Of a DNA stretch of 64,000 nt, positions 14,693-61,241 are shown piece by piece. The stretch's first letter is position 1, and each line of letters opens with the position of its first letter. Both the position numbers and the translations under genes were made by a program. This DNA is from Promethearchaeota archaeon (GTDB taxonomy: Archaea; Asgardarchaeota; Hermodarchaeia; Hermodarchaeales; Hermodarchaeaceae): assembly GCA_048938295.1 (NCBI GenBank), contig JBHLMI010000011.1:1337-65336 (forward strand), given 5' to 3'. The notes below the pieces were generated by a model that did no database searches, was not told the origin of the DNA, and worked only from the letters and a program-made list of their open reading frames with translations.

Positions 14693-15217
14693 ATGGTTTC
14701 AAAATATAGTTTCAAAGTTATTATGATGGGAGATGGTGCAGTTGGAAAAACCTCTTTGGTTATTCGATATACGGAAAATCGTTTTGATCTAAAATACAAA
14801 GCGACTTTAGGTGCAGCCTTTGCCGCCAAAGAGGTTAAGATCACTAATGTCGAAATCAACCTAATGATTTGGGATCTAGCAGGTCAGCCTTCGTTTGATG
14901 AGGTACGGGATCGTTATTACCTAGGTTCTTCAGCAGCCATACTTGTTTTCGACGTTACTAATGCTTCAACCACTGAGAAACTAAGAAACTGGTTAGTAAA
15001 ATTCAGAAAACAGGTTCCGAAAGGACCAGTCATTTTAGTTGGGAATAAAACAGATTTGGAGGAAAAACGTCAAATCTCAACCCAAGAAGCACATGAGATT
15101 AGAGACAAATTACAATTACCGTATTTTGAAACATCCTGTTCAACCGGCGATGGAGTCAATGAGGTATTCCACAGCCTTATCATTAAAACCCTCGAAGCCA
15201 AGGAAAGAAGAAGATAA
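14693..15217 (+). CDS. Ras/Rab-family small GTPase
   Basis: G1 GDGAVGKTSL, G3 WDLAGQ, G4 GNKTD, G5 ETSCSTG; 174 aa; ATG preceded by gaggtg. Confidence 0.9.
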   Translation: MVSKYSFKVIMMGDGAVGKTSLVIRYTENRFDLKYKATLGAAFAAKEVKITNVEINLMIWDLAGQPSFDEVRDRYYLGSSAAILVFDVTNASTTEKLRNWLVKFRKQVPKGPVILVGNKTDLEEKRQISTQEAHEIRDKLQLPYFETSCSTGDGVNEVFHSLIIKTLEAKERRR

Positions 15218-16650: not shown

Positions 16651-16722
16651 TTTTTTGACTAATCAGAACTTGACAGTCAATTTTTCTTGACTGACTCAAA
16701 GTCAACTCTTTTTGACTCTCAA
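16651..16722. promoter_or_regulatory. array of TTGAC-containing palindromes (candidate operator)
   Basis: TTGACtaatcag, TTGACAGTCAA, TTGACTGACTCAAAGTCAA, TTGACtctcAA within 70 bp between regulator gene 16719..17573 and secreted-protein gene. Confidence 0.35.
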
Positions 16723-25549: not shown

Positions 25550-27592
25550 ATGAACCAAGACACAGAACACATGACAGGCAATCATTCGCCGCATCATGCG
25601 GCGATTAAACACAACTCCCACGATGGAGTTTCTCATCACGAAATGATGATACGTGACTATCGGAAAAGGTTCATCGTTTCAATGATACTGACAGCGCCGA
25701 TAGTCTTGCTGTCCCCCTTAATTCAGACCCTATTAGGATTAACAGCGTTCCTCTCATTTCCAGGATACACGCTGGTTCTATTTGGCCTATCGACAATAGT
25801 TTATTTCTTTGGCGGCTATCCCTTCCTGAAAGGATTAGTCCAAGAAATCAGAAAACGCCAATTGGGAATGATGACCTTGGTGGCGGTTGCGATAACCGTT
25901 GCATATGGCTATAGTAGCGCTGTGGTTTTTGGGTTACCGGGCACGTTGTTCTTTTGGGAACTAGCCACGTTGATCGACGTGATGCTCTTTGGACATTGGA
26001 TGGAAATGCGATCCATCATAGGGGCATCACGGGCGTTGGAGGAATTGGTGAGATTACTTCCCGCTACAGCATTTCTTCTCTTACCTAATGGAGAGGTAAA
26101 AGAGGTGCCAACCACTGACCTACAACGAGGAGATCGGGTTCTTATCAAACCAGGAGAACGAATCCCCTCCGATGGTACCATCCTGGAAGGTGAAAGTAGC
26201 ATGAATGAGGCCTTCATCACAGGCGAATCGCTTCCTGTGGAGAAGAAACCCGACGACACGGTGATTGGAGGTGCAATTAACGGGGATGGAACGCTCACCA
26301 TGGAAATCACAAAGGTGGGAAAGGAGACATATCTGTCACAAGTAATTGAGTTGGTGCGAGAAGCCCAGACAAGTCGTTCACGAACTCAGGACGTGGCAAA
26401 TCGGGCAGCGTTCTTCCTTACCGTCATTGCCTTATCAGTTGGAGCCCTCACGCTATTTGCTTGGGTTGCGTTAGGCCAAGGAATAGCATTCGGAATTGAA
26501 CGAAGCGTCACCGTAATGGTGATCACCTGCCCCCATGCACTTGGATTGGCTGTTCCATTGGTCGTGGCGGTTTCAACCTCAATTTCAGCACAGAATGGGT
26601 TATTGATAAGAGATCGTGTCGCATTTGAACGCGCTCGTAAATTAGATGCGATTATTTTTGATAAAACGGGTACACTAACTGAAGGTCAATTTTCAGTAAC
26701 TGATGTCGTGTCTTTAGCTGATCTGAACGATGAAACTGTACTCCAATTAGCAGCATCCTTGGAGACATTATCTGAACATCCTATCGCCCAAGGCATCGTA
26801 CGCGGAGCCAATGAACGAAATCTTACTCTCACCACAGCACACAATTTTCAAGCTATTCCCGGAAAAGGAGCCAAGGGACAAGTTGATGCCAAGCAGATCA
26901 AAGTCGTTAGCCCTGGATACCTGAAAGAAAAAGATCTGCTCCCAGAGAATGAAACAATCGAACGGCTCGCCCAACATGGCAAAACTATTGTCTATGTGCT
27001 CGTTGATGATCAGTTGCAAGGCGCCCTTGCATTAGCAGATGTGATTAGGAAAGAATCCAAGACTGCAATTGCCACACTAAAACGTATGGGCATTCAGAGC
27101 ATGATGTTGACCGGAGATAATCAGCATGTTGCGCAATGGGTCGCCGATGAATTGGGGCTAGATGATTATTTTGCTGAAGTTTTACCCCATGAAAAAGCGG
27201 CGAAGATTCGTGAAGTACAAGATCGAGGATTAACAGTGGCAATGGTGGGGGACGGCATTAACGATGCCCCTGCTCTTGCCCAAGCAGATGTGGGCATCGC
27301 TATTGGGGCTGGAACCGATGTTGCCATCGAAGCTGCAGATATCGTACTCGTCCGCAATGATCCTCAGGACGCTGTAGCCATTCTTGGCCTCTCTCGAGCT
27401 ACATACAAAAAAATGGTACAAAATCTATTATGGGCCACAGGTTACAACGCGATTGCGATTCCGTTGGCAGCAGGATTACTCCTCCCGCTGGGAATTCTCT
27501 TAAGTCCTGCAATTGGGGCTGCGCTAATGTCTATAAGTACCATCATTGTGGCCGTCAATGCCCGCTTCTTATCAATAAAAGGTGAATCATGA
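25550..27592 (+). CDS. copB: P1B-3-type copper-exporting P-type ATPase (CopB-like)
   Basis: His-rich N-terminus (HSPHHAAIKHNSHDGVSHHE), CPH transmembrane metal motif (VITCPHALGLA), DKTGTLT, GDGINDAPAL. Confidence 0.9.
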   Translation: MNQDTEHMTGNHSPHHAAIKHNSHDGVSHHEMMIRDYRKRFIVSMILTAPIVLLSPLIQTLLGLTAFLSFPGYTLVLFGLSTIVYFFGGYPFLKGLVQEIRKRQLGMMTLVAVAITVAYGYSSAVVFGLPGTLFFWELATLIDVMLFGHWMEMRSIIGASRALEELVRLLPATAFLLLPNGEVKEVPTTDLQRGDRVLIKPGERIPSDGTILEGESSMNEAFITGESLPVEKKPDDTVIGGAINGDGTLTMEITKVGKETYLSQVIELVREAQTSRSRTQDVANRAAFFLTVIALSVGALTLFAWVALGQGIAFGIERSVTVMVITCPHALGLAVPLVVAVSTSISAQNGLLIRDRVAFERARKLDAIIFDKTGTLTEGQFSVTDVVSLADLNDETVLQLAASLETLSEHPIAQGIVRGANERNLTLTTAHNFQAIPGKGAKGQVDAKQIKVVSPGYLKEKDLLPENETIERLAQHGKTIVYVLVDDQLQGALALADVIRKESKTAIATLKRMGIQSMMLTGDNQHVAQWVADELGLDDYFAEVLPHEKAAKIREVQDRGLTVAMVGDGINDAPALAQADVGIAIGAGTDVAIEAADIVLVRNDPQDAVAILGLSRATYKKMVQNLLWATGYNAIAIPLAAGLLLPLGILLSPAIGAALMSISTIIVAVNARFLSIKGES

Positions 27593-46942: not shown

Positions 46943-47347
46943 TTAGTCTTTGAGTGGCATAATTGTATACTTCACCTGAAGAAGGCCACGCATGGCACGG
47001 ATCCGACTTATGAACTCGGTTATGTCCTCGGCTTCTCCCTCGGCAATGAATACCTCAAGGCAATAGGCTTCACCGAGGTGCAAATGCATGTTACCCGACA
47101 CAATATGGCTGTAAGCATGACGGAGACGAGTTAATCGCTCATCCACTCCCTGCTGCTCGTGGGTCGAGATGGCCGTGATGGTGGCCGTAACCCGTCCTCC
47201 TTCAAACTTTTCAAGTTCAAATTCAGAAAGTGCGGTACGAACCGCATCTCGAATAGCCTCCGAACGACTAGAATAACCCCGTTCCTGCATGAATTGATCC
47301 AATTGCTTTAGGAGTTTGGTGGTCAGAGAAATGCTAATAATGGGCAT
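46943..47347 (-). CDS. nikR: nickel-responsive transcriptional regulator NikR
   Basis: N-terminal ribbon-helix-helix ISISLTTKLLKQLDQFMQERGYSSRSEAIRDAVR; C-terminal ACT-like domain with His/Cys ligands (HEQQ...HLHLGEAYC). Confidence 0.85.
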   Translation of the reverse strand: MPIISISLTTKLLKQLDQFMQERGYSSRSEAIRDAVRTALSEFELEKFEGGRVTATITAISTHEQQGVDERLTRLRHAYSHIVSGNMHLHLGEAYCLEVFIAEGEAEDITEFISRIRAMRGLLQVKYTIMPLKD

Positions 47348-47486: not shown

Positions 47487-49433
47487 GTGCCAGACCAGCG
47501 TTACGAAAATGGGAATAATTGCACAGTGTGCGAAGTAGCCTTTGAACCTGCCATTCACAGATCTTCGTTTTGGCGTGATTACCGGGTTCTCATTATTCTT
47601 GTCTCAACTGCGTTGTTTGCCTTGGGACTCATCGTCGATTTCGTCCTGCACCAGCAGCTCATCGCCTTTGCCCTGTACCTATTTGCGGTGGGTATTGCAG
47701 GGTATTCCATTGCTAAAGAGGGAATCAAAGCATTGATCTTCAAGCGACGGCTGAACATCGCCTTTCTAATGACAATCGCGGCCGTGGCCAGCTTCTTCAT
47801 TGGACATCCAGCGGAAGGTGCTGCTGTAATGGTGCTGTACTTCATTGCGGAGTTTCTTGAAATTAAGGCGAATGAGAATGCCCAGCGATCCGTCGCTTCC
47901 CTGATGAAGTTGGCACCGGAAACGGCGACTATAAAACGTGATGGCAAAGAATCCCGCGTTCATGTTCACGAAGTAAACCTCGATGAAATAGTGGTGGTTC
48001 GACCCGGTGAAAAAATCCCGTTAGATGGAATCGTTATCCAGGGATCGTCTAGTGTCAATCAAGCCCCCATTACTGGTGAATCGCTTCCAGTCGAAAAAGA
48101 AGCCAATGATGAGGTGTACGCAGGGACCATAAACAATGAAGGCTATCTCGAAATTCGAGTAACCCGATTATCGAATGAAACCGTGCTTGCCAAGATTTTG
48201 ACCATGGTTGAGGAGGCGCAAAAATCCAAATCTCCTATTGAACACTTCGTGGACAAGTTTGCGAAATATTATACACCCTCAGTCGTTGTCGTTGCGGTTG
48301 TTGTTGCAACGATTCCATCAATTCTTTTGGGTGCTCTTTGGATAGACTGGATCTATCGAGCCCTTATTCTTCTGGTAATATCTTGTCCTTGTGCTCTCGC
48401 TATCGGAACGCCGGTGGCGATGGTGTCAGCTTTGACGAGTGCAACGAAGCAAGGGGTGCTGATTAAAGGAAGTCGGTATATCGAAGCATTGGGCAACGTG
48501 AAGGTGGTCGCATTCGATAAGACCGGAACCTTGACTTCGGGTCAATTAGCGGTGACCGACGTTATTTCCTTTGACGAATCTGACGAATCGGTTCTCCGAG
48601 TGGCAGCGTCAATTGAGAGCTTCTCGGAGCACCCAATTAGTAAAGCAATTGTAGCGAAAGCCTTGAATCCCGGATTACAAGTCAGCGACGTGGATGATTT
48701 CACAACTATCACTGGACAAGGCGTCTCGGGCAGAATCGACACCGTACAATATTTTGTTGGAAGTGAACGGCTTTTCACTAAATTAGCTATCCCGTATCCT
48801 AAGAATCAAGTTCGGCATCTAGAGGAAGAAGGAAAAACAGTTATCCTGGTCGGTGATTCAGCGCGAGCGATTGGCGTAATTGCAATTCAGGATACGATTC
48901 GACCCTCCAGTATGAGTACCATTGCAACTCTGAAACAAATGGGGATCAAAACCGTCATGGTGACCGGCGATAATGAACACACTGCCGCGTTTATCGCCAA
49001 ACAAATCGGCATCGATGCGTTCTATGCAAATCTGATGCCTGAAGATAAAGTCAAGATTCTCGAAGAGTTGCAGCAACATTACGGGGCCATCGCAATGGTG
49101 GGAGATGGGGTGAATGATGCCCCCTCGCTAGCCACCGCGGATGTAGGCATTGCGATGGGAGCTATTGGAAGTGACGCGGCTATCGAAACCGCCGACATTG
49201 CATTAATGCATGATGATCTCGCAAAATTGCCCTATCTATTTGAACTGAGCCAAAAAACGCGAAGTATTGTTCGTCAAAATATCGGAACCGCATTAATTGT
49301 AAAATTTAGTCTGGCCGCTCTGGTCTTCCCGGGCTTAATCACTCTCTGGTTGGCGGTAGCCATCGGAGATATGGGCTTATCTTTAGCAGTTATACTCAAC
49401 GCGATGCGACTTTCCCGAGTAAGAGCTGAATGA
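47487..49433 (+). CDS. P1B-type heavy-metal (Zn/Cd/Co/Ni-class) P-type ATPase
   Basis: N-terminal CTVC metal-binding motif, CPC in TM6 (VISCPCALAIGTP), DKTGTLT, GDGVNDAPSL; GTG start. Confidence 0.9.
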   Translation: MPDQRYENGNNCTVCEVAFEPAIHRSSFWRDYRVLIILVSTALFALGLIVDFVLHQQLIAFALYLFAVGIAGYSIAKEGIKALIFKRRLNIAFLMTIAAVASFFIGHPAEGAAVMVLYFIAEFLEIKANENAQRSVASLMKLAPETATIKRDGKESRVHVHEVNLDEIVVVRPGEKIPLDGIVIQGSSSVNQAPITGESLPVEKEANDEVYAGTINNEGYLEIRVTRLSNETVLAKILTMVEEAQKSKSPIEHFVDKFAKYYTPSVVVVAVVVATIPSILLGALWIDWIYRALILLVISCPCALAIGTPVAMVSALTSATKQGVLIKGSRYIEALGNVKVVAFDKTGTLTSGQLAVTDVISFDESDESVLRVAASIESFSEHPISKAIVAKALNPGLQVSDVDDFTTITGQGVSGRIDTVQYFVGSERLFTKLAIPYPKNQVRHLEEEGKTVILVGDSARAIGVIAIQDTIRPSSMSTIATLKQMGIKTVMVTGDNEHTAAFIAKQIGIDAFYANLMPEDKVKILEELQQHYGAIAMVGDGVNDAPSLATADVGIAMGAIGSDAAIETADIALMHDDLAKLPYLFELSQKTRSIVRQNIGTALIVKFSLAALVFPGLITLWLAVAIGDMGLSLAVILNAMRLSRVRAE

Positions 49434-53109: not shown

Positions 53110-54804
53110 TCACGCTGTAACAACCTCAATTTTGAGTTTGGGTTTACTAATCACTTCACGTTGTTCTTTGAGGATGTTTCGGGCAATGTCTAAGGCTGTT
53201 TCATCATCGTAGACGCCTTGAGCGTTTTTCCGTGCTTCTTGGAGCATCTGACGCTGCACCTTGAGTTTCAAATCCCCAATGGTCAACGCACCAATACCAT
53301 AGTTTTCAGGAATTAGCTCACGAAAATCATCTGTAGGAGTTAGAGATTCGATTCCACTTGGAGGTACAGCATTTACATCCAATAGAATTTTTGTCCCTAA
53401 AACAGATTGCAGCTGTTCGAGTGATACTAATTGAATACCCGGAGAGCCAACAGCGAAAATAAGGTTAGCATCCTCTAGAAGTTCATGAAGGTCATCAGGT
53501 GAAGTTGATTGCACGCCTTCCACTTTATTACTCTCGATTGAGGCCCGGTGCGCTACTTCTCTGGCCCGGTCAATATTTCGTGAGGTTAATACTGTCAGCG
53601 CTCCACTCTTGGAAAGTAAATGAGCCACACTTTCTCCAACTGGTCCTGTACCTGCAAGAACTAACGCAATGTTACTTTTGAGTGAACCTTGGTTAAGTCT
53701 GCGCAGAGCTTCCTCAGCTTTGGCAACCATAGCCGCCGCCGTGGAAAATGCACCGTGTGGATCAATAATTACTGCCGTTTCGAAAGGTTTCACCATGGCC
53801 TTTTGAATTCTGTCTGCCATTTGACGAGCAAGGGAAACCTGACGTCCTCCAACAAAGAAGCAAAGATGCTTTACTCCCTTGGTTCCCCTTGAAAAGATAG
53901 CATCTTGGACTAAGTCTTGAATCCGATCAAGCGACACTCCAGAATATGGAACTACAACATCAAATCCTGCGTCGTACGCTACACAGATATCAAACGGGCT
54001 AGCGTGGTCATCCGCTTCTAGGAAAAAAAGAATGTCACTTAGTTTTGTTTTTGGGCGCTTAATCACTGGCACAACAGAAACCGAAGAAACTCCTGTGAGC
54101 TCCGTCATGCCTTTCATTTCCTCTTTTGGCACTTCTGAAAGAATTCGTTTGAAGCTTATAGGGACCACATCTACCTCCAAGGATTGCAAAAGTTCCATTA
54201 AACCTTGGAAATGTCTGGGGCTGCTCAAGTGAAACGTGGTTATTCGCTTCTTCTTAAGAAGTTCAGCTTGTTGTAAAATCCCCATAGTAATCCAGCTTTC
54301 ACGGATTCCAAATTGTACTTGTCTAATTTCCTCTTCAAGTTCATCGTGCAAGTACTGACCATAGGCGACAAGCCGATCTATTTTGTCTTGCACACTTGGA
54401 GTTATTTTTTCATCTGATAGGATTCTTAACCCGTCTAAGACCTCATTGCGCTTTTCCAGTTTCAACTTGATACTCCGTGAGAGGTATGAGTGAGCGAACT
54501 CGTCCATTTCAACCGCATAAAAAGGGATCTTTAATTTTGAGAATACATCCGCTACTGGGTTGTCTTCACGGAATTCCTTCAAGCTCCGCAGACCCAATTC
54601 ATCGGTGGCAAAATCTGGTGACTCTGATTCAGCAATCTGCTTGATCATATCGCAATAAGCCATTGAAGGGCGTTTTATTGCAGAAATCTTCGATTCAGAT
54701 TCAGAAGGAGGGGAATGAATGAGCCAAGGTTCGTCATAGGCCTTTCTAATTAGGAAGACCCGCAATTTTTTCCCACTTAAAGGGGCAAGCTCTAACGTTT
54801 TCAA
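53110..54804 (-). CDS. fusion protein: unknown ~270-aa N-terminal domain plus MtdA-like NAD(P)-dependent methylene-H4MPT/H4F dehydrogenase domain
   Basis: C-terminal half matches MtdA family (FDxxVxYDAGFD...FVGG...TAAAMVAKA...VLAGTGPVGESVA...GDLKLKVQR); N-terminal half has no recognised motif. Confidence 0.7.
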   Translation of the reverse strand: MKTLELAPLSGKKLRVFLIRKAYDEPWLIHSPPSESESKISAIKRPSMAYCDMIKQIAESESPDFATDELGLRSLKEFREDNPVADVFSKLKIPFYAVEMDEFAHSYLSRSIKLKLEKRNEVLDGLRILSDEKITPSVQDKIDRLVAYGQYLHDELEEEIRQVQFGIRESWITMGILQQAELLKKKRITTFHLSSPRHFQGLMELLQSLEVDVVPISFKRILSEVPKEEMKGMTELTGVSSVSVVPVIKRPKTKLSDILFFLEADDHASPFDICVAYDAGFDVVVPYSGVSLDRIQDLVQDAIFSRGTKGVKHLCFFVGGRQVSLARQMADRIQKAMVKPFETAVIIDPHGAFSTAAAMVAKAEEALRRLNQGSLKSNIALVLAGTGPVGESVAHLLSKSGALTVLTSRNIDRAREVAHRASIESNKVEGVQSTSPDDLHELLEDANLIFAVGSPGIQLVSLEQLQSVLGTKILLDVNAVPPSGIESLTPTDDFRELIPENYGIGALTIGDLKLKVQRQMLQEARKNAQGVYDDETALDIARNILKEQREVISKPKLKIEVVTA

Positions 54805-54960
54805 TTAATCACCTGCCTATATTAGGCAGTTAAGGCTTCTTCCCATCTGAGAAAAAGGCGATGAAAATTTATTTTAGATGAAAAAAGACAATTTTTATAG
54901 TCAAGCTCGTTGCCCAAGGCAAATTGTGAACTAGATCGGGGCAGATATCTTAAGTTCAAA

Positions 54961-56304
54961 TCATGTTTTTCGTTCTCCAGCTTCTCTAAATCTATAATCT
55001 GTATGAGCTGCACAAGAAACGCAGGGATCAAAACATCGAACAGCCATCATAGCCCGTTCAAGGATTTTTTCATTTGGCCAACCAAGATTTATGCAAGCAC
55101 TCATGACGTTTTGTACAATCACCGCTATCGCACGGGCATTAAGCTCTGTTGGCACTCGAATGTCGATATCTTTGATTCTGTTGCTACTATTTGTACTTAC
55201 TCGGTAAAGGAGAATTCCCCGTGGAGCTTCAACTGCACTAGCTCCGATTCTAGTTCCTGGTGTCAACCCAATTGAAGAGTCTTCATCTTTCGACCATTCT
55301 GTTTCCAACAGGTTGATTGCATTTGTGAGAGCGAATTCCATTTCGTCAATTCGAAGAAGCCCGGTTTGGAACAGGTTAGGCACTCCTATGTACGATTTCT
55401 TACTTTTCGTTGGCTTAGACTGAAGTACAGCTAGTCGGGCATAAGGCCCCGCTAAGAGATTCTTGGATTCGTCGTTTGATTTGATGTAGACAACTTTTGT
55501 GGGGGCATCTAACAGGTCCTGCTCCACTAAGTATTCAGAGAAATCATCACAGGCAACGGTTTCATGTGTTCCATCATCAGAAATGAAATGGACCTGATTA
55601 AGACCAGAAAACCGGTTGGCCTTTGTTTCAAAGGAGCTAATATAAAGTGGAAGAGGAAGTGCATAGTGTTGGATTTCCTCTTCGATTTCATCTAGTAGCG
55701 AATTGTAGTATTCTTTAGTCCATTTCACTCCCGAGAGCGTTGAAGAAAGTTGTTGGATAAGATCTTGCTGTTGAGTGCTATTGATGTTTTGAACGACTCC
55801 ACCTGGAATCAGGTTAAAGGCTAAATTAGTATTACCTGCTGTTGCGGTGATTAACGCTTCTGCACACTCGTATAATTTTGTAGCAATTGGTAGAACTCGT
55901 GGTTGCATGCGATCAATGCCAAGGATGTCTTGTCGAGAGATTTGGTTTGTAAGATACATCAAATCAGCCAAAGTAGAAAAGAACACACTATATGTGTGCG
56001 ATCGGATGATTTCTCCCAAGAGCGCCAGTTCGCGGATTAACTCGGCAATTGGGGGAATTGATACATCTGTAGTCGATTCAATTGCTTTTATTGCTCCTAT
56101 TCTATGGGCAACTGGACAAATTCCACAGATCCGCGGAACAATTTTTGGTAAGTCATTAATGTGTTGTCCAATTAGAACGTTCAAAAAGTCCCGTGCCGTT
56201 GGCATGTTATATACAACATTTGTTATGCGATCTTTGTCTCGCGTTACAATGAGCTTGCTTTCGCCTTCTATCCGTGTCATTGGTAAGGATAGTCGAATTT
56301 TCAT
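54961..56304 (-). CDS. mvhA: [NiFe] hydrogenase large subunit, F420-non-reducing (Mvh/Vhu, group 3c)
   Basis: N-terminal RICGICPVAH and C-terminal DPCVSCAAH Ni-Fe ligands with C-terminal extension; TRIEG start region. Confidence 0.9.
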   Translation of the reverse strand: MKIRLSLPMTRIEGESKLIVTRDKDRITNVVYNMPTARDFLNVLIGQHINDLPKIVPRICGICPVAHRIGAIKAIESTTDVSIPPIAELIRELALLGEIIRSHTYSVFFSTLADLMYLTNQISRQDILGIDRMQPRVLPIATKLYECAEALITATAGNTNLAFNLIPGGVVQNINSTQQQDLIQQLSSTLSGVKWTKEYYNSLLDEIEEEIQHYALPLPLYISSFETKANRFSGLNQVHFISDDGTHETVACDDFSEYLVEQDLLDAPTKVVYIKSNDESKNLLAGPYARLAVLQSKPTKSKKSYIGVPNLFQTGLLRIDEMEFALTNAINLLETEWSKDEDSSIGLTPGTRIGASAVEAPRGILLYRVSTNSSNRIKDIDIRVPTELNARAIAVIVQNVMSACINLGWPNEKILERAMMAVRCFDPCVSCAAHTDYRFREAGERKT

Positions 56305-57035
56305 TGTTTAAACTTCAGCTCCGGTTTTTGATATCTAAAAGCGAGAGCCGCATACTTACGAATGGCGTCGCTGACTTTTATGAGAGAGAAGAAATTAGCG
56401 AGAGTCGAGGGTAGATTCCGGTCTATGGCACCCATACAGCCATCACAGGGAGTGGCTCCCTTAATACAAAGGGCTTCACACCCTGCACGGGTTATTGGGC
56501 CTAAACAGAGTATTCCCTCGCGTAAAAAACAGCTTTGGGGAGGGCGTACGTTATGTAAGGACGTTATCTCAACATCAAATGCTTGATCTTGGGCAAACGG
56601 GCATTCTCCACACACGTTTTTGTCAGGGAGTTCGATTTCAGAACCATCAATTGCGCTCATCAACAGATTTCCAAGTAACTTTCGTGGTGGCGGACAGCCA
56701 GGTAATGACATGTATAAGTCAACGAATTTACTGATGGGATCTATACGCATGTTGGGGGATTGGCTCATTATTCCACCGAGAACGGCACAGCTTCCCAAAG
56801 CGATGATTTTGGTTCCTGCGGTCCATAGTCTTCGAAGAAGTTCCGCGTCTTCATCTCGAGTGACTCCACCTTCTACAAATGCGATATCTAAATCCGTGTC
56901 AACTTGAACATCAGAGATTAATCGAAACACACGAATATCAACTGATTTAAGGAGTTCAGGGAATAGGGCGCTACCAAGTATGGCAAACATACACCCGCTA
57001 CAGGAGTTTAGTTGAAGAAAACCAATCTTAGTCAT
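56301..57035 (-). CDS. mvhG: [NiFe] hydrogenase small subunit (MvhG-type)
   Basis: NSCSGC proximal cluster motif, GCPP, additional Cys clusters; overlaps mvhA by ATGA. Confidence 0.85.
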   Translation of the reverse strand: MTKIGFLQLNSCSGCMFAILGSALFPELLKSVDIRVFRLISDVQVDTDLDIAFVEGGVTRDEDAELLRRLWTAGTKIIALGSCAVLGGIMSQSPNMRIDPISKFVDLYMSLPGCPPPRKLLGNLLMSAIDGSEIELPDKNVCGECPFAQDQAFDVEITSLHNVRPPQSCFLREGILCLGPITRAGCEALCIKGATPCDGCMGAIDRNLPSTLANFFSLIKVSDAIRKYAALAFRYQKPELKFKQ

Positions 57036-59563
57036 TAGCCTAATAGCTCCTCTAATTCAGTGGAAAATTGATTGACCTGGTTCGCGAACACGTGACCTTC
57101 AACGGCTGACACATTCAATACGCGTACACGTTTTTGTAGTTCGTCTCCATAAAAATCTGCGAGAACACCAATTCGTGTCTGAGCCTTCTTGATACCCTCA
57201 AAGAACCGGCAAGCTGTTTCATGACAGCCAACAACCATAACACCATCAAATCCGTGGTTTAACGCTGTTATTACATAATTTGCATCGATTGAACCCGCGC
57301 ATGGCAGTCTAATGACCATTGCACCAGGATCATAGTCCAGTCGACGAATGCCTGCATTATCCACTGCCGGGTATCCACATGAGTTGCAGGAAAACACAAT
57401 TATTCGGGGGGAGGCTGTGCTCATTGAGAGGGCATTCATTGCAGCTTGAACCTCCTCCTGAATTGGAGGGGAAGCCAGAGCTCCGGTTGGGCATATTGCG
57501 ATGCAGGCTCCACAGCCTTCACATTTTAGCGTATCGATACGAAGTGTGTCAGCTATGATGGCGAGAGCGTTAAAGGGACAGGACTCTACACAGAGATTAC
57601 AAAGCCCACATTTTTCTTGATTAATTTGAATTGGTATGTCCCCTGCAGGGAGGCTATCTTTTCCTAATAGAAGAAGAACTTCTAATGCGGTATCTCGAGA
57701 ATCTGCTACTAAGTCGGCATAAGCTTTAGGACCAGTTATAGACCCACAAGCCCAAATACCTGAGGATAAGCTCTTTGGGTCAATGAAACCTCGTCTATCC
57801 AAGGAAAAATTCGTCATACTACGAAGGGTTAGCTGTTGGTCTCCTGGCGTCATACCCATATTGAGAACAATAAGATCTGCTGGGAATGAATTTGAATCAG
57901 TTTGGATTAAGCGTTTATGCCCCCGATGAATGATCTTAATGCTTTCACAAAAGTGAATATGAGAATATTCTGGGATGAAGGTGCTTCGATCAGGGGGAAT
58001 TAAGGCTATCTGGTAAAGGACATTGATGGAAGTATTGGGCGCCTTTTTTTCTACAATCTCTAGGTATTTGAGCGCGAGGTTACAGCAGTAGTTTGAACAA
58101 GCCTTGGTTCGGTTCTGACATTGAAGAACAATTATGGAACGGGCAGGTTGGCCGGTTGTTGGGCAGATTATATTGCCTCCTGTTGGTCCATCAGGCGCTA
58201 GCATACGTTCAAATTCGGATGAAGTGATAATATCCTTAGCAGGGTTATATTGAATTGCTCCTTGAGATGGCAAGGTTTTAGGATCGCATACTTCTGCGCC
58301 TGTTGCAAGAATTATGGCACCAACCGTGAACTTCTTGGTTACAGGTTCTTGATCAAGATTAATCGCTTTAGATGGGCATGCTTTTTCGCATTTTCGGCAT
58401 GTCCGGCAAAAATCAATATCCTCCTGTTCAATGACGGGTCTACTAGGATATGCGGCAGGGCAAGGCACATGGATGAGTTTACGTTGGCTAATATGGTACT
58501 CAAATGCATCTGGACGAGACTCAGGACACGTATCGACACAAGAGCCGCACATTATGCATTTTGATAAATCGACATATCGGGGCTGTTGCAGAGCAGTAAT
58601 CTCATAATTGCCAATTGTTCCTGAAATATCGGAGAGTTCGGTATTAGTAAGAATTCGTATGTTCCCTGAAAGCATAACTGAGGATACATCCTCAGCAATC
58701 ATACATGGACCACAATCGATAGCCCCATAGATGCTTTCCCATCGCCGCGCGATTCCACCTAGACATGACTCTTTCTCTAGCAGAATAATGGAATAGTTGG
58801 ATTGAGCCAAAACCTTGGCAACCTCTACTCCAGCTAGTCCACCACCAATGATGGCGGCACTTTTCCGAATTGGTAACGTACGCTTTGGAATTGAGACCCG
58901 ATGCCGGAGCATCTCAGCGCTGGCCCGTATTAGAAGTAACGCTTTTTCTGTGGCTTGCTCGGGTTTATTTCTATGAACCCAAGCACAATGTTCACGTATG
59001 TTCGCGAATTCAATGGGTATATCCAATTGCATTCGAATAGCGGTAAACATTTGGCTGTGAAGGTGAGGGGAGCAGGCTGCAATTACAAGATTATTCAGAA
59101 AATACCGATCACACCATGCTTTTAGTTTCTCAACGTTTTCTAACAAACATAAATGCTGAAACACCATTGTACGTTCAACATATGGCAGATCATTGACTTT
59201 CTCCATAAGCTCCCCGACATTAATGGCTTGATGAATTTCCTCCCCACAAGAACAGACAATTACGCCAATACGGAAAATTGCTCCTCGTGAATCCGCTTCG
59301 CTCAGATCGATTGCCTCTCCGGCCATCAATTGTTCCTTGGCGGTCATTAGGCGGATTGCATTTGTTCCTGCGGCGGAAAGTTGATAGAAGCCATTCCGTT
59401 TCTCTATGAACCCCTCCAGTTTTTTGAGATGATAATTGAAGAGACCTGTTTTCGTGAGCCCTAATCTTTTCATCAAATCATTATAGGTGATTAGTCGTTC
59501 AGCGTCTAATATTCGAAGAATTTGTTCGCGGAGTGGATGGGCCAAAGCCGCATATACATTCAT
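57035..59563 (-). CDS. hdrA: HdrA-like flavoprotein fused to MvhD, with N-terminal winged-helix domain
   Basis: Residues 1-75 wHTH (LREQILRILDAERLITYNDLMKRLGLTKTGLFNYHLKKLEGFIE); then HdrA hallmarks RIGVIVCSCGEEI, AACSPHLH, FAD GGGLAGVEVA, ferredoxin CxxCxxCxxxCP x3; C-terminal MvhD domain (FSCNSCGYPAVDNAG...LPCAGSID). Confidence 0.85.
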   Translation of the reverse strand: MNVYAALAHPLREQILRILDAERLITYNDLMKRLGLTKTGLFNYHLKKLEGFIEKRNGFYQLSAAGTNAIRLMTAKEQLMAGEAIDLSEADSRGAIFRIGVIVCSCGEEIHQAINVGELMEKVNDLPYVERTMVFQHLCLLENVEKLKAWCDRYFLNNLVIAACSPHLHSQMFTAIRMQLDIPIEFANIREHCAWVHRNKPEQATEKALLLIRASAEMLRHRVSIPKRTLPIRKSAAIIGGGLAGVEVAKVLAQSNYSIILLEKESCLGGIARRWESIYGAIDCGPCMIAEDVSSVMLSGNIRILTNTELSDISGTIGNYEITALQQPRYVDLSKCIMCGSCVDTCPESRPDAFEYHISQRKLIHVPCPAAYPSRPVIEQEDIDFCRTCRKCEKACPSKAINLDQEPVTKKFTVGAIILATGAEVCDPKTLPSQGAIQYNPAKDIITSSEFERMLAPDGPTGGNIICPTTGQPARSIIVLQCQNRTKACSNYCCNLALKYLEIVEKKAPNTSINVLYQIALIPPDRSTFIPEYSHIHFCESIKIIHRGHKRLIQTDSNSFPADLIVLNMGMTPGDQQLTLRSMTNFSLDRRGFIDPKSLSSGIWACGSITGPKAYADLVADSRDTALEVLLLLGKDSLPAGDIPIQINQEKCGLCNLCVESCPFNALAIIADTLRIDTLKCEGCGACIAICPTGALASPPIQEEVQAAMNALSMSTASPRIIVFSCNSCGYPAVDNAGIRRLDYDPGAMVIRLPCAGSIDANYVITALNHGFDGVMVVGCHETACRFFEGIKKAQTRIGVLADFYGDELQKRVRVLNVSAVEGHVFANQVNQFSTELEELLG

Positions 59564-59705
59564 CTTGGGGTCCTTCTCGTGATTTCTGTGGAGAAATACC
59601 TTAGATAACTCTAATTGTCAAGAAACATAACTTAGACAAAAAAGCTTGCCCTGTTTAAAAAGGCAAGCAATGGCTGCAACTATTCTTGCTACTTCTGATG
59701 AGAAA

Positions 59706-59951
59706 TTACATCTTTTTACTCTCAGAAGTAGGAATGGGAGCACGATAGCGCGTTTGATAGCAATTGCGGCAAATGTAGCGAGGCATAACGTTAAGCGCAC
59801 CACACCATGGGCATTTCCAAAAATCGATCGTTGTTAGTGTCACATCGGCCTCACGTCGGATATAACGACAATGCTGGCATAAACGTAAATGAATAAAATT
59901 TGATACTCCACATTTCGGACACGTCCAATACTTCAAATTCCACCACCCCAC
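59706..59951 (-). CDS. double zinc-ribbon protein
   Basis: CPKCG...CQHC and CPWCG...CRNC pairs in 81 aa. Confidence 0.55.
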   Translation of the reverse strand: MGWWNLKYWTCPKCGVSNFIHLRLCQHCRYIRREADVTLTTIDFWKCPWCGALNVMPRYICRNCYQTRYRAPIPTSESKKM

Positions 59952-60144
59952 GAGGATCTCTTATTGCTACTTTCTCATTAAATCTCCTAAGTTGTGCTAT
60001 AGGATGCGCGGGTTTCATAGCGACTCTATATTGATTTCAGCCGAATCTTCACATCCTAGCATATAGTAGGAGGGAACGAAAAAACAAAAACACTCTGAAA
60101 AACATCATTTCCAAAGTGTGACAAATAATTTTATCTTGAGCTTG

Positions 60145-60244: not shown

Positions 60245-60571
60245 TCATTTTATTTGTTCAAGTTTCTCTAGCATTTGTTGGCGATATCGTTCTAAAGCGG
60301 TTTTCCCCTCATCAGAGAGTTGGATGAGCGTGTGGGGAATTTTATCAACGAATTCTTTGGTGATCCTAACATAGCCGACGGTTTCCAGTTTGCTGAGATG
60401 AGAAGAGAGATTACCGCGCGTGAGGCCCGTGCGGCGTAAGATGAACAGGAAATCTGCACTCTCGACTTCTTTGAGAATGGTGAGGATTTTCAGACGTGCT
60501 GGCGAATGGACAATAGGATCAACATCCTCATCCTCGATGGAAGAGAATGGGGGGGAGTTAGAGGAGGGCAT
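60245..60571 (-). CDS. winged-helix (ArsR/PadR-like) transcriptional regulator
   Basis: ARLKILTILKEVESADFLFILRRTGLTRGNLSSHLSKLETVGYVRITKEF; start placed at internal ATG 60571 (preceded by ggtga) because upstream part of track ORF 60245..60829 overlaps membrane-protein gene in another frame. Confidence 0.65.
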   Translation of the reverse strand: MPSSNSPPFSSIEDEDVDPIVHSPARLKILTILKEVESADFLFILRRTGLTRGNLSSHLSKLETVGYVRITKEFVDKIPHTLIQLSDEGKTALERYRQQMLEKLEQIK

Positions 60572-61241
60572 GGGGCGTCTCACCTTCAATGGACTCGGTG
60601 TGTTCGACTGGATAGTGGTGCAGGAATCGGAGAAACAGGATAGTGCCGAATAAGAGAGCGAGGAGCCCAATGGCGGCGTATTGGATGGCAAGGGTTGTGA
60701 AAAACGCCGCATATGCGCTGGGAAAACTGAGAGGCAACCATGGCACGAGAATCCCAATGAGAGGCGGAAGAACCGCAAATAGATAATAGCGGGCAACGTG
60801 GTATTTGCGGGCGATGATAAAGAGCCCAATGGAAATTAAGACGCTAAAGGTGACGGGGGCAATCCAGATTAACCAGAAGAACAGTCCATCATATCCGGAG
60901 AAGATGAATAAGACCACCGGCGGAAGGATGAGCAGAATCATAATCGAGACCAGCACAAGGACTGCTGTGCGTGTACTCGTGGCTTCCAAGGGCTTGGGCT
61001 TGACATATCCGACGCGGGGATAGACCCACCGTTGTTTAGCTCGCTCAATGAGCGGTCTATATAGCAGGGGATTAAGGGTCAGGATCATAACCCACAGGAA
61101 TGTGATATTGTGGGCAAGCAGGGTGAGAAGGGCAGCCAAGCCAAGAAGAATGACGGCCATGAAAAGGTCAGCGAGTCCATCCTCATAATAGGCTTGTTGG
61201 ACTTTCAGAGCGAGTGCATCTAATTCTGTGGAGGTTGACAT
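60558..61241 (-). CDS. polytopic membrane protein, operonic with wHTH regulator
   Basis: 227 aa, 6 TM; 14-nt overlap with downstream regulator gene. Confidence 0.6.
   Translation of the reverse strand: MSTSTELDALALKVQQAYYEDGLADLFMAVILLGLAALLTLLAHNITFLWVMILTLNPLLYRPLIERAKQRWVYPRVGYVKPKPLEATSTRTAVLVLVSIMILLILPPVVLFIFSGYDGLFFWLIWIAPVTFSVLISIGLFIIARKYHVARYYLFAVLPPLIGILVPWLPLSFPSAYAAFFTTLAIQYAAIGLLALLFGTILFLRFLHHYPVEHTESIEGETPHALL

What the first reader, a model, noticed from the sequence alone, without database searches (positions are those of the whole stretch)
53110..59951. mvhDGA-hdrA gene string without hdrBC, followed by an MtdA-like fusion gene
The order on the minus strand is zinc-ribbon gene, wHTH-hdrA-mvhD, mvhG, mvhA (4-nt and 1-nt overlaps), then a 564-aa gene after a 156-bp gap. 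The C-terminal half of that gene is an MtdA-type NAD(P)-dependent methylene-tetrahydromethanopterin/folate dehydrogenase domain. No hdrB or hdrC is present in the window. The physical link between a bifurcating-type hydrogenase module and a C1-carrier dehydrogenase suggests a dedicated electron route to the C1 pathway. The unknown N-terminal domain of the MtdA fusion, with no motif I recognise, may mediate that coupling.
Basis: partly seen in the sequence, partly recalled or inferred. Interest (0 to 1): 0.6.

Follow-up and report, generated by a model that had tools for sequence, protein, structure and literature searches.

The report
Hydrogenase-HdrA genes linked to two-domain MtdA
In an Asgard (Hermodarchaeota-like) archaeon, genes for a hydrogen-splitting enzyme and its electron-splitting flavoprotein partner sit next to a gene for a C1-pathway dehydrogenase that carries an extra, uncharacterised domain; that linkage holds across Asgard lineages, which gives a testable lead on what these hydrogenases feed.

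Summary
The minus strand carries a zinc-ribbon gene, wHTH-HdrA-MvhD (842 aa), MvhG, MvhA (1-nt and 4-nt overlaps), a 156-bp gap, and then a 564-aa gene. Residues 258-544 of that gene are a complete MtdA-type methylene-H4MPT dehydrogenase. No hdrB or hdrC is in the window.

The two-domain gene is not a frameshift artefact. The ~565-aa architecture is conserved across Asgard lineages, Bathyarchaeia and Hadesarchaea.

Synteny with the hydrogenase is strong but Asgard-specific. All 10 Asgard-type loci with enough flank have mvhA directly upstream. Loki-type loci keep the linkage in a rearranged, divergent form.

In 68 Bathyarchaeia-type loci the same fusion gene sits beside F420-dependent Mtd and a PhoU-type regulator, with no hydrogenase. 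In one further lineage it sits beside NfnAB-like genes. So the N-terminal domain is a family-wide module and not a hydrogenase adaptor. It has no Pfam or PDB match and is joined to the MtdA domain by a flexible tether.

Best reading: the hydrogenase/HdrA module and an NADP-type dehydrogenase step of the Wood-Ljungdahl pathway are coupled at pathway level and transcribed from separate, similarly boxed promoters. A physical complex is not excluded. I found no published description of this linkage.

The parts
59706..59951 (-). Double zinc-ribbon protein, 81 aa, function unknown. It is syntenic upstream of hdrA in Hermod/Hod-type relatives only.
   Evidence: ORF. Weak zinc-ribbon Pfam hits. tblastn gives 66-94% identity at the same position in L001, L009-L012, L019 and L020, and nothing in the Thor-type loci L003-L005.
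59644..59668 (-). Terminator-like hairpin plus T-run after the zinc-ribbon gene. It suggests hdrA starts a new transcription unit.
   Evidence: 9-bp stem, 5 G-C pairs, TTTTTTG tail. The block AAACAGGGCAAGC-TTTTTGTCT is invariant in 6 relatives.
59604..59620 (-). Conserved dyad-like box TGACAATTAGAGTTATC upstream of hdrA. It could be a core promoter or an operator.
   Evidence: Alignment A4 shows GACAA...TTATC invariant in 6 sequences. The pattern TGAYRA-N6-TYRTC gives 4 hits in the window against 0.76 expected, and two of them lie in this cluster.
57035..59563 (-). wHTH(DUF7347)-HdrA-MvhD fusion flavo-iron-sulfur protein, 842 aa. Residues 1-~95 are the wHTH (about 59279-59563), 98-709 are HdrA (57437-59272), and 714-840 are MvhD (57044-57424).
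   Evidence: Pfam and NCBIfam. PDB sequence alignment to HdrA 8rvu/5odc (E ~1e-90) and to MvhD 5odc_D (E = 1e-19). Four CxxCxxCxxxC motifs, plus CSC, CGPC and CC motifs that match the positions of the methanogen HdrA cysteines.
56301..57035 (-). [NiFe]-hydrogenase small subunit, MvhG-like, 244 aa, 12 Cys.
   Evidence: Oxidored_q6, E = 2e-16. Best NCBIfam hit is VhuG at 121 bits, below the 450-bit cutoff.
54961..56304 (-). [NiFe]-hydrogenase large subunit, MvhA-like (group 3c-like), 447 aa.
   Evidence: NiFeSe_Hases. Best NCBIfam hit is VhuA at 116 bits, below the 800-bit cutoff. Both Ni-Fe ligand motifs are present.
54805..54960 (-). 156-bp intergenic region. Its last ~110 nt are strongly conserved and contain the A/T-rich dyad-like box TTGACTATAAAAATTGTC (54887-54904), a small hairpin CTGCC-N7-GGCAG (54813-54829) and the SD-like AGGTGAT (54808-54814).
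   Evidence: Sequence. The 7-sequence alignment A2 shows long invariant runs. The stem change in L012 (TTGCC...GGCAA) keeps the pairing. No Rfam family matches.
54040..54804 (-). N-terminal domain of the fusion protein (residues 1-~255). It is an uncharacterised alpha/beta domain with an ~80-residue helical hairpin. Invariant residues are K21, T67, E69, R168, W171, H192, S195, P196 and H198.
   Evidence: No Pfam hit. AF2 model has pLDDT 84 and pTM 0.79. Foldseek against the PDB gives at best E = 0.057 and TM 0.26. A profile search of PDB sequences finds nothing.
53110..54033 (-). C-terminal MtdA-type NAD(P)-dependent methylene-tetrahydromethanopterin dehydrogenase domain (residues 258-564).
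   Evidence: Mpt_N at 101 bits against a 27-bit cutoff. End-to-end alignment to MtdA 6tlk/1lu9 with GTGPVG conserved. Fold match at TM 0.92-0.93 and rmsd 2.0 A.

Best explanation
This is a conserved Asgard gene neighbourhood made of two adjacent units, with coupling at the level of the pathway.

Unit 1 (hdrA-mvhD, mvhG, mvhA, translationally coupled) encodes a group-3c-like [NiFe] hydrogenase wired through MvhD to a complete HdrA flavoprotein. This is the electron-bifurcating or confurcating core that exchanges electrons between H2 and ferredoxin, plus a second, higher-potential carrier.

Unit 2, behind its own conserved promoter-like block, encodes a two-domain enzyme. Its C-terminal half is an MtdA-type, pyridine-nucleotide-dependent methylene/methenyl-H4MPT dehydrogenase, which is the third redox step of the archaeal Wood-Ljungdahl methyl branch.

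The most likely logic is that the hydrogenase/HdrA module balances the reductant pools (ferredoxin, and directly or indirectly NADP(H)) that this dehydrogenase and the rest of the pathway use or produce. The two units are kept together and probably co-regulated for that reason.

The N-terminal domain is an accessory module of the whole archaeal MtdA-like family. It is probably a ligand-binding, regulatory or oligomerisation domain, and it is not a hydrogenase-docking device.

Shown: gene order, domain identities, intact metal and cofactor motifs, conservation of the architecture, and lineage-specific synteny. Inferred: the direction of electron flow, NADP(H) as the shared carrier, co-regulation, and the role of the N-domain.
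For: - Domains and motifs are established.
- Asgard synteny: 10 of 10 Asgard-type loci with at least 1.5 kb upstream have mvhA within 300 bp on the same strand. 8 of 8 with at least 5 kb have mvhA, mvhG and hdrA-mvhD. HdrA identity in these loci falls as low as 53%.
- The linkage survives rearrangement. In Loki-type loci the fusion gene is divergent from wHTH-hdrA-mvhD.
- Thor-type loci also place cdhA and cdhB (CODH/ACS) next door.
- In other lineages the same fusion gene neighbours other hydride- or electron-carrier modules for the same metabolic node. F420-dependent Mtd lies within 400 bp in 45 of 58 Bathyarchaeia-type loci, with Ftr nearby. NfnA/NfnB-like genes, scoring above NCBIfam cutoffs, lie beside it in L099.
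- Separate but similar conserved promoter-region boxes precede hdrA and the fusion gene.
- The N-domain is present with or without a hydrogenase neighbour. It occurs in reversed domain order and as stand-alone paralogs. The full-length model has pTM 0.58 against 0.79 for the domain alone, with a low-confidence linker.
Against: - No expression, interaction or activity data were available.
- HdrA shows no recognisable second dinucleotide-binding site from which it could reduce NADP+. This comes from inspecting the alignment.
- The cofactor specificity of the MtdA-like domain (NADP vs NAD, H4MPT vs H4F) is untested.
- The promoter-box similarity may simply reflect a generic A/T-rich archaeal core promoter.
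- The synteny counts rest on 14 distinct Asgard loci, several of them closely related.
- hdrBC may exist elsewhere in the genome. The hydrogenase's real partner could be an unknown disulfide with no special link to MtdA.
Confidence: 0.45

Rival explanations
1. Physical supercomplex. The MtdA-fusion protein docks onto the Mvh-HdrA complex, through its N-domain or otherwise. Hydride then passes between the HdrA flavin and NADP(H) bound at or near MtdA. The result would be an HdrBC-independent, H2-driven (or H2-evolving) methenyl/methylene-H4MPT oxidoreductase, possibly with ferredoxin as the co-substrate of a bifurcation. It would be a multi-subunit functional analogue of Hmd or of Frh plus Mtd.
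For: - Tight, conserved adjacency in all Asgard-type loci, kept after rearrangement in Loki-type loci.
- No hdrBC in the conserved block.
- Precedents exist for Hdr modules bound to C1-pathway enzymes. The Fmd-Hdr supercomplex chains appear among the PDB hits (7bkb). MetFV-HdrABC-MvhD of Moorella thermoacetica is another (my own knowledge).
- There is a precedent for an HdrA-MvhD fusion (HdrA2) that takes hydride from a free carrier, F420H2 (review text).
- The N-domain has a long helical hairpin and tends to occur in pairs, which suits protein-protein contacts.
Against: - The N-domain is equally conserved where no mvh/hdrA neighbour exists: 0 of 15 well-flanked Bathyarchaeia-type loci have one.
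- The fusion protein has 3 cysteines in 564 residues and no detectable flavin domain, so it cannot accept single electrons from Fe-S clusters.
- The methenyl/methylene-H4MPT couple (about -390 mV, my own knowledge) is too low to serve as the high-potential arm of a bifurcation from H2.
- The fusion gene has its own promoter-like block and is not translationally coupled to mvhA.
Confidence: 0.2
2. An ordinary MvhADG-HdrABC system whose hdrBC genes lie elsewhere and which reduces an unknown disulfide. The MtdA-like gene is simply a neighbouring Wood-Ljungdahl gene, kept nearby by shared ancestry or loose regulon clustering, with no specific redox connection.
For: - Published Asgard and Hermodarchaeota reconstructions report hdrABC together with mvhADG and assume an unidentified heterodisulfide.
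- One Thor-type relative has hdrC-hdrB-hdrA 9 kb downstream.
- hdrA is unlinked from hdrCB in some methanogens (my own knowledge).
- The HdrA here keeps every cysteine motif of canonical HdrA.
- The fusion gene looks separately promoted.
Against: - The adjacency persists down to 53% HdrA identity and through an inversion in Loki-type loci, while the genes on both outer sides are not conserved. That is more than inertia would give.
- The same MtdA-like family repeatedly neighbours redox-carrier modules in unrelated lineages.
- Similar conserved boxes precede both units.
Confidence: 0.25
3. Artefact. The 564-aa ORF would be two genes joined by a sequencing or assembly error, or the adjacency would be a chance feature of this one contig.
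For: The start codon is TTG, and the N-terminal half has no database family.
Against: - More than 100 homologs of 560-580 aa from independent assemblies cover 97-100% of the query.
- The N-terminus MKTLE(L/I)xPL is conserved.
- An SD-like AGGTGAT lies directly upstream of the TTG start (its last base is 3 nt before the first T).
- Synteny is reproduced in 14 distinct loci.
Confidence: 0.02

Closest known systems
MvhADG-HdrABC, the H2:CoB-CoM heterodisulfide,ferredoxin reductase of methanogens (PDB 5odc, 8rvu)
   Same: It has a [NiFe] large subunit with both CxxC ligand motifs, a small subunit, MvhD, and a full-length HdrA with all its cysteine motifs. HdrA aligns over residues 98-709 at E ~1e-90.
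   Different: MvhD is fused to HdrA. An extra N-terminal wHTH (DUF7347, ~95 aa) is absent from the solved HdrAs. There is no hdrB or hdrC in the window or in the conserved block. All NCBIfam equivalog scores are far below cutoff (for example VhuA at 116 bits against 800). These organisms are reported to lack Mcr, so CoM-S-S-CoB is not the expected acceptor.
MtdA, the NADP-dependent methylene-H4MPT/H4F dehydrogenase of Methylorubrum extorquens (PDB 1lu9, 6tlk)
   Same: The C-terminal 290 residues align end to end at about 39% identity in the phmmer alignment. The GTGPVG dinucleotide motif is conserved. The predicted fold gives TM 0.92-0.93 and rmsd 2.0 A.
   Different: Bacterial MtdA is a single-domain protein of about 288 aa. 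This archaeal family carries an additional ~255-aa domain of unknown fold family, usually N-terminal and C-terminal in one lineage. Bacterial homologs match only residues 247-549. Substrate and cofactor are untested.
MetFV-HdrABC-MvhD methylene-tetrahydrofolate reductase complex of Moorella thermoacetica (my own knowledge; Mock et al. 2014)
   Same: [quoted passage not shown]
   Different: That complex contains HdrBC and no hydrogenase, and it serves the methylene-to-methyl step with a flavoprotein (MetF). Here the partner is the methenyl/methylene step, carried out by a pyridine-nucleotide enzyme with no flavin or Fe-S cluster, and physical association is unproven.
Formylmethanofuran dehydrogenase-Hdr-(Mvh/Fdh) supercomplex of methanogens (PDB 7bkb-7bke)
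   Same: An HdrA-centred bifurcating machine is directly attached to a CO2-reduction enzyme of the H4MPT pathway. Its chains appear among the PDB hits of this HdrA.
   Different: The link there runs through polyferredoxin to a ferredoxin-dependent enzyme. MtdA-type enzymes use hydride carriers, so the same wiring cannot apply.
Frh plus F420-dependent Mtd, or Hmd, in hydrogenotrophic methanogens (my own knowledge)
   Same: They serve the same metabolic need, moving reducing equivalents between H2 and the methenyl/methylene-H4MPT couple.
   Different: The enzymes and carrier (F420, or direct hydride transfer) are entirely different. Here the carrier would have to be NADP(H), and the hydrogenase is of the Mvh/HdrA type.
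NfnAB (NADH-dependent reduced ferredoxin:NADP+ oxidoreductase)
   Same: It is a flavin-based bifurcating module that connects NADP(H) to ferredoxin. NfnA/NfnB-like genes occupy the position next to the MtdA-like fusion gene in locus L099, analogous to Mvh-HdrA in Asgard.
   Different: It has no sequence relationship to Mvh/HdrA. The parallel is positional and functional only.

Membership tests
MtdA/MtdB-type NAD(P)-dependent methylene-H4MPT dehydrogenase | Mpt_N (PF09176) domain above Pfam's gathering score | tested here: met
   101.2 bits against a cutoff of 27, covering residues 270-349 and profile positions 1-80 of 81.
MtdA/MtdB-type NAD(P)-dependent methylene-H4MPT dehydrogenase | Full-length sequence and fold similarity to a solved MtdA | tested here: met
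   Residues 258-544 align to residues 5-287 of 6tlk/1lu9 at E ~5e-40. Foldseek gives E = 4e-25, TM (target-normalised) 0.92-0.93 and rmsd 2.0 A.
MtdA/MtdB-type NAD(P)-dependent methylene-H4MPT dehydrogenase | Glycine-rich dinucleotide-binding motif of the Rossmann domain | tested here: met
   LAGTGPVG aligns with MtdA's LAGTGPVG. G385, T386 and G387 are invariant and G390 nearly invariant in 32 family members.
MtdA/MtdB-type NAD(P)-dependent methylene-H4MPT dehydrogenase | Single-domain architecture of about 290 aa | tested here: not met
   The protein is 564 aa with an extra ~255-aa domain, and this is conserved across the archaeal family. Bacterial homologs cover only the C-terminal half.
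MtdA/MtdB-type NAD(P)-dependent methylene-H4MPT dehydrogenase | Catalysis of methylene-H4MPT (or H4F) oxidation with NADP+ or NAD+ | not testable with these tools
   This needs enzymology.
MvhADG-HdrABC (group 3c [NiFe] hydrogenase : heterodisulfide reductase) | [NiFe] large subunit with N- and C-terminal CxxC ligand motifs, plus small subunit and MvhD | tested here: met
   RICGICPVAH at 58 and DPCVSCAAH at 426. Oxidored_q6 small subunit. FlpD/MvhD domain at E = 3.8e-32, aligned to 5odc_D. MvhD is fused to HdrA.
MvhADG-HdrABC (group 3c [NiFe] hydrogenase : heterodisulfide reductase) | HdrA with an FAD-binding fold and the full set of Fe-S cysteine motifs | tested here: met
   Residues 98-709 align to positions 13-649 of 8rvu HdrA. 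All the cysteine motifs of the reference have counterparts.
MvhADG-HdrABC (group 3c [NiFe] hydrogenase : heterodisulfide reductase) | HdrB (CCG domains) and HdrC encoded with, or available to, the complex | tested here: not met
   There is no CCG or extra ferredoxin motif in the 64-kb window. No CCG-domain gene lies in the conserved block of any relative; only L003 has hdrCB, 9 kb away. The rest of the genome could not be searched.
MvhADG-HdrABC (group 3c [NiFe] hydrogenase : heterodisulfide reductase) | NCBIfam equivalog thresholds for VhuA, VhuG, VhuD and HdrA | tested here: not met
   VhuA 116 of 800 bits, VhuG 121 of 450, VhuD 77 of 215, HdrA 310-355 of 1300-1400.
HdrA2-type HdrA-MvhD fusion (F420H2-oxidising, Methanosarcina) | HdrA and MvhD in one polypeptide, scoring above the NCBIfam HdrA2 threshold | tested here: inconclusive
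   The fusion architecture is present, and HdrA2 is the best NCBIfam hit (527 bits). That is below the 1100-bit cutoff, and the best-scoring stretch covers only residues 98-517.
TraB/Tiki/ChaN/erythromycin-esterase-like superfamily (considered for the N-domain) | Profile or fold match to a member of the superfamily | tested here: not met

The most novel reading that the evidence does not exclude
In Asgard archaea, which are reported to lack methyl-CoM reductase and hence CoM-S-S-CoB, the Mvh-HdrA-MvhD module may not be a heterodisulfide reductase at all. It could be an HdrBC-independent, electron-bifurcating or confurcating H2:ferredoxin/NADP(H) oxidoreductase dedicated to the methenyl/methylene-H4MPT step. 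In that reading, the two-domain MtdA-like enzyme is its physically associated, NADP(H)-channelling partner. The uncharacterised domain would be a new, widespread archaeal module that recruits MtdA to whichever redox partner a lineage uses: F420-Mtd, NfnAB, or Mvh-HdrA.
Probability: 0.12. Interest if true: 0.8.

Novelty: new variant of a known kind. Interest (0 to 1): 0.5.

Why it matters
Asgard archaea are the closest known relatives of eukaryotes, and models of their metabolism and of eukaryogenesis depend on how they make or consume H2. Their Mvh/HdrA-type hydrogenases are routinely annotated as "MvhADG-HdrABC reducing an unidentified heterodisulfide". What these enzymes actually couple to is an open question.

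A conserved, rearrangement-resistant link to an NADP-type methylene-H4MPT dehydrogenase points to the Wood-Ljungdahl methyl branch and the NADP(H) pool as the place to look. It also supplies concrete proteins to co-express and assay.

Separately, the ~255-aa domain attached to every archaeal MtdA-like enzyme examined is a well-folded, widely distributed domain with no family or structural assignment. It sits in the middle of a core carbon-fixation pathway in Asgard, Bathyarchaeia and Hadesarchaea, and standard annotation overlooks it: the whole protein is simply named "methylenetetrahydromethanopterin dehydrogenase".

Tried and rejected
- Frameshift or mis-assembly of the 564-aa ORF: rejected.
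- hdrB/hdrC hidden elsewhere in the window: a six-frame scan for CCG-domain and ferredoxin motifs found none, and Pfam scans of the other large ORFs found none.
- N-domain as a member of the TraB/Tiki/ChaN/erythromycin-esterase superfamily. I raised this from motif resemblance (…ATEELG…, …RESW…, …HxSSPxH…). It is not supported by Pfam, by a PDB sequence-profile search or by Foldseek.
- N-domain as an Fe-S or flavin relay: unlikely. The whole protein has 3 Cys and no flavin-family Pfam hit.
- N-domain as a replacement for the cyclohydrolase Mch: considered and given low weight. mch is listed among the methyl-branch genes of another archaeal group with this pathway, and my recollection is that it is also reported for Bathyarchaeia and Asgard, but I did not test presence or absence genome-wide.
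- The downstream 248-aa ArsR-type gene as a counterpart of the PhoU-type regulator seen in other lineages: no similarity, and it is not syntenic in relatives.
- An RNA element in the conserved intergenic block: no Rfam family reaches gathering score anywhere in the window.
- The sigma-70-type promoter scan is uninformative: 14 hits against 14.8 expected.
- 'Stand-alone' N-domain proteins: among the metagenome loci of the survey, all six 'not fused' cases lie at contig ends, so many of the ~210-260-aa hits in the exhaustive search may be truncations too. Genuine stand-alone paralogs do exist in L017, L018 and L099.
- The literature searches and the papers I read found no description of the linkage. 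The library holds only open-access papers, so key Asgard metabolism papers may be missing.

Full report
**What is in the sequence**

- an 81-aa double zinc-ribbon gene (59706-59951);
- an 842-aa gene (57035-59563);
- a 244-aa gene (56301-57035, overlapping the previous stop by 1 nt);
- a 447-aa gene (54961-56304, with a 4-nt ATGA overlap);
- after 156 bp, a 564-aa gene (53110-54804, TTG start).

Profile searches assign the 842-aa protein an N-terminal winged helix (DUF7347, residues 3-71), a pyridine-nucleotide-disulfide-type FAD fold with four ferredoxin-type cluster motifs, and a C-terminal FlpD/MvhD domain. Against solved structures, residues 98-709 align over the whole length of methanogen HdrA (8rvu, 5odc; E ~1e-90) and residues 714-840 align to MvhD. 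The reference's cysteine motifs all have counterparts.

The 244-aa and 447-aa proteins are the small and large subunits of a [NiFe] hydrogenase. Their best NCBIfam matches are VhuG and VhuA, but far below the equivalog cutoffs. Both Ni-Fe ligand motifs are intact.

The 564-aa protein has an Mpt_N domain at 270-349 (101 bits against a cutoff of 27). Residues 258-544 align end to end with Methylorubrum extorquens MtdA, including the GTGPVG motif. The predicted structure of this half superposes on MtdA with TM 0.92-0.93 and rmsd 2.0 A.

A six-frame scan found no CCG-domain or additional ferredoxin motif anywhere in the 64 kb, so hdrB and hdrC are not in the window.

**Source organism**

The window encodes a Ras-family small GTPase. 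The nearest genome-collection relatives of the fusion protein are Hermodarchaeota MAGs at 95%, 78% and 77% identity. A 100%-identical HdrA-MvhD is on record from a 66-kb NCBI contig named 'Promethearchaeota archaeon'. Promethearchaeota is a phylum of the kingdom Promethearchaeati in the NCBI taxonomy, and a preprint gives it as the current name for Asgard archaea. The window is therefore from a Hermodarchaeota-like Asgard archaeon.

**The two-domain gene is real**

More than 100 homologs of 560-580 aa from independent assemblies cover 97-100% of the query at 40-95% identity. They are labelled Hermod-, Hod- and Thorarchaeota, Bathyarchaeia and Hadesarchaea. The N-terminus (MKTLE-x-PL) is conserved, and an SD-like AGGTGAT precedes the TTG start.

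**The N-terminal domain**

The domain (about residues 1-255) has no Pfam family. An exhaustive profile-free search of 1.8 billion representatives found it only in this protein family and in short relatives.

The invariant residues are K21, T67, E69, R168, W171, H192, S195, P196 and H198. In the model's secondary structure they fall at or just after the C-terminal ends of strands 1, 2 and 4 and on the second long helix. That is the usual ligand-binding edge of such folds. I infer a conserved binding or catalytic site, and I did not check this in three dimensions.

The full-length model is confident within each domain (mean pLDDT 87.6), but pTM is only 0.58 and the linker at about 225-257 has low confidence. 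The two halves therefore look like separate modules on a flexible tether.

Three further observations agree with that:
- One lineage has the domains in reverse order (P0153).
- Genuine stand-alone paralogs of the domain lie next to the fusion gene in Loki-type loci (hhalign 98.6%).
- Another stand-alone paralog lies next to the fusion gene in locus L099 (hhalign 99.2%).

**Synteny**

I collected loci through exact-protein look-ups, a genome-collection scan, and a metagenome scan seeded with the N-domain alignment (80 loci). I then mapped neighbour proteins onto all of them with tblastn.

| Locus type | Distinct loci | Result |
|---|---|---|
| Asgard-type (N-domain at least 56% identical) | 12 | 10 of 10 with at least 1.5 kb upstream have mvhA within 300 bp on the same strand. 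8 of 8 with at least 5 kb have mvhA, mvhG and wHTH-hdrA-mvhD. None has F420-Mtd or PhoU. HdrA identity falls to 53%. |
| Loki-type (L017, L018) | 2 | The fusion gene is divergent from wHTH-hdrA-mvhD, about 1.1 kb away, with the N-domain paralog between them and mvhG/mvhA within 4.4 kb. |
| Bathyarchaeia-type (37-43% identity) | 68 | 45 of 58 have F420-dependent Mtd (PF01993) within 400 bp upstream. 49 of 50 have a PhoU-domain (often MazE/AbrB + PhoU) gene directly downstream. Ftr is commonly within 1-5 kb. 0 of 15 with at least 5 kb on both sides have any Mvh or HdrA gene. |

The genes outside the Asgard block differ between relatives on both sides. The zinc-ribbon gene is kept only in Hermod/Hod-type loci, and the downstream regulator of the window is not kept at all. 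Thor-type loci add cdhA and cdhB, convergent, next to the fusion gene.

A Hadesarchaea locus has PhoU directly upstream, along with F420 and pterin genes.

Locus L099, from an unidentified archaeon, has the reversed-order fusion, a divergent MazE/PhoU gene and an N-domain paralog. These are followed by an NfnA/SudB-type gene (418 bits against a 220-bit cutoff), a GltA/NfnB-type gene (634 bits against 472), an MtaA-family methyltransferase and an HdrD-like gene.

The link between the hydrogenase/HdrA genes and the MtdA-like gene is genuine. It is conserved and survives rearrangement, so a functional relationship is likely. It is also specific to Asgard.

The extra domain is not specific to that link. 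It is equally conserved where the neighbour is F420-Mtd or Nfn-like. It lacks cysteines and any detectable flavin domain, so it cannot relay single electrons. The idea that it is the coupling device is therefore disfavoured.

What the neighbourhoods share is that this MtdA-like enzyme sits next to whatever module handles the reducing equivalents of the methenyl/methylene-H4MPT node in that lineage: F420 through Mtd, NADP(H)/ferredoxin through Nfn-like proteins, or H2/ferredoxin through Mvh-HdrA. I take this as evidence for pathway-level coupling through a soluble carrier, most plausibly NADP(H). That step is an inference.

**Thermodynamics** (standard potentials from my own knowledge: H+/H2 -414 mV, methenyl/methylene-H4MPT about -390 mV, NADP+ -320 mV, ferredoxin about -500 mV in vivo, CoM-S-S-CoB about -140 mV)

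The methenyl-H4MPT couple is too negative to be the high-potential arm of a bifurcation from H2. NADP+ could serve near equilibrium, in either direction. However, HdrA here shows no second dinucleotide-binding site in the region aligned to the methanogen enzyme (inspection). Direct NADP+ reduction by HdrA would therefore need a binding mode like that proposed for F420H2 at HdrA2 (review text). This keeps the supercomplex model possible but unproven.

**Transcription units**

hdrA-mvhD, mvhG and mvhA are translationally coupled through their overlaps.

The 156-bp spacer before the fusion gene has a poorly conserved first third and a strongly conserved last ~110 nt in seven relatives. The conserved part contains an A/T-rich dyad-like box (window TTGACTATAAAAATTGTC, 54887-54904; consensus TTGACGATAAAA-TTGTCA), a T-rich stretch, and a small hairpin that overlaps the ribosome-binding site (54813-54829). 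One sequence has paired changes in the hairpin that keep the stem.

A terminator-like hairpin follows the zinc-ribbon gene. A conserved box, TGACAATTAGAGTTATC, lies upstream of hdrA (59604-59620). The degenerate dyad TGAYRA-N6-TYRTC occurs four times in the window against 0.76 expected. Two of the four lie in front of hdrA and of the zinc-ribbon gene, and the fusion-gene box differs from the pattern by one base.

This suggests separately promoted but similarly controlled units. The boxes could equally be generic core-promoter elements. No Rfam family matches anywhere in the window.

**Comparison with what is known**

The parts belong to known families: a group-3c-like [NiFe] hydrogenase, HdrA, MvhD and MtdA. 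HdrA-MvhD fusions and hydrogenase-HdrA clusters in Asgard archaea are already noted in general terms. Hermodarchaeota genomes are reported to hold hdrABC and mvhADG. The absence of hdrBC from the locus is therefore not remarkable in itself.

Three things appear not to be described in the papers I could search:
- the conserved pairing of this hydrogenase/HdrA unit with an MtdA-type gene across Asgard lineages;
- the extra domain carried by the whole archaeal MtdA-like family, with its stand-alone paralogs and its permuted form;
- the alternative, equally conserved Mtd-fusion-PhoU arrangement in Bathyarchaeia.

The library holds only open-access papers, so this absence is not proof of novelty.

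**Verdict**

I file the locus as a new variant of known kinds, not as a new system. It is of moderate interest because it offers a concrete, testable lead on the unresolved partner of Asgard Mvh/HdrA hydrogenases, and it exposes an unannotated domain in a core carbon-fixation enzyme.

Noticed in passing
L006, L026-L098 (e.g. L028:8000-11000, L038:8000-11000): In Bathyarchaeia-type contigs the fusion gene sits in a highly conserved trio. F420-dependent Mtd (PF01993) lies 100-180 bp upstream in 45 of 58 loci, on the same or the opposite strand. A PhoU-domain gene abuts its 3' end tail to tail in 49 of 50 loci. Ftr lies 1-5 kb away. Two different methylene-H4MPT dehydrogenases side by side could form an F420H2:NADP+ exchange cycle.
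   Followed up: partly
L099:3110-11543: This locus has a reversed-order fusion (MtdA domain first, the unknown domain last; P0153). It is flanked by a divergent MazE/PhoU gene, a 183-aa stand-alone paralog of the unknown domain, NfnA/SudB-like and GltA/NfnB-like genes, an MtaA-family methyltransferase, DUF1847 and an HdrD-like (Fer4 + CCG) gene. The organism was not identified.
   Followed up: partly
L017:6955-7512 and L018:6965-7585: Loki-type loci carry a stand-alone, partly degenerate paralog of the N-domain (185 and 206 aa) immediately upstream of the fusion gene. Several invariant residues are lost (for example the SPxH motif). That hints at a hetero-dimeric partner and not a second active copy. 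L017 also has two copies of wHTH-hdrA-mvhD, only one of them followed by mvhG and mvhA.
   Followed up: partly
window 59279-59563 (residues 1-95 of the 842-aa protein) and window 16719-17573: HdrA carries an N-terminal winged-helix domain (DUF7347) that is absent from the solved methanogen HdrAs but present in the full-length Asgard homologs of ~840-860 aa (about 60 of those listed). A second protein with a weak DUF7347/HTH_20 match lies elsewhere in the window. A DNA-binding domain on a bifurcating flavoprotein could mean redox-linked autoregulation.
   Followed up: no
window 54887-54904, 59604-59620, 60119-60135: Dyad-like boxes (TGAYRA-N6-TYRTCA) lie in front of the fusion gene, hdrA and the zinc-ribbon gene. 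The first two are conserved in relatives. The pattern occurs 4 times in the window against 0.76 expected. They could be a shared operator or the core promoter.
   Followed up: partly
window 54813-54829: A small conserved hairpin (CTGCC-N7-GGCAG) overlaps the ribosome-binding site of the fusion gene. One relative has a paired change that keeps the stem (TTGCC...GGCAA). It may control translation.
   Followed up: partly
window 14693-15217: A Ras-family small GTPase (PF00071, E = 9e-50), a eukaryote-signature protein typical of Asgard archaea.
   Followed up: no
window 10662-11540 and 20037-21032: Two luciferase-like oxidoreductases whose best match is the F420-dependent LLM class (TIGR03560, 185 and 227 bits against a 231-bit cutoff). 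They are not Mer equivalogs. This is a weak hint that the organism uses F420.
   Followed up: partly
window 46943-47347 and 47487-49433: A NikR-type nickel-responsive regulator is divergent from a P-type ATPase, about 8 kb from the [NiFe] hydrogenase genes. The window holds two further P-type ATPases (6727-9525 and 25550-27592).
   Followed up: no
window 60245-60829 vs 60558-61241: Two long minus-strand ORFs overlap in different frames. The 194-aa ORF has a real HTH_34 winged-helix domain only at residues 112-186, and its first ~100 residues are low-complexity. Its true start is therefore probably internal, and the 227-aa membrane-protein ORF is the real upstream gene.
   Followed up: no
L003:12026-14910, L004/L005:12283-15182: In Thor-type relatives, CODH/ACS subunit genes cdhA and cdhB lie convergent with, and directly after, the fusion gene. 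L003 also has hdrC-hdrB-hdrA 9 kb downstream.
   Followed up: partly
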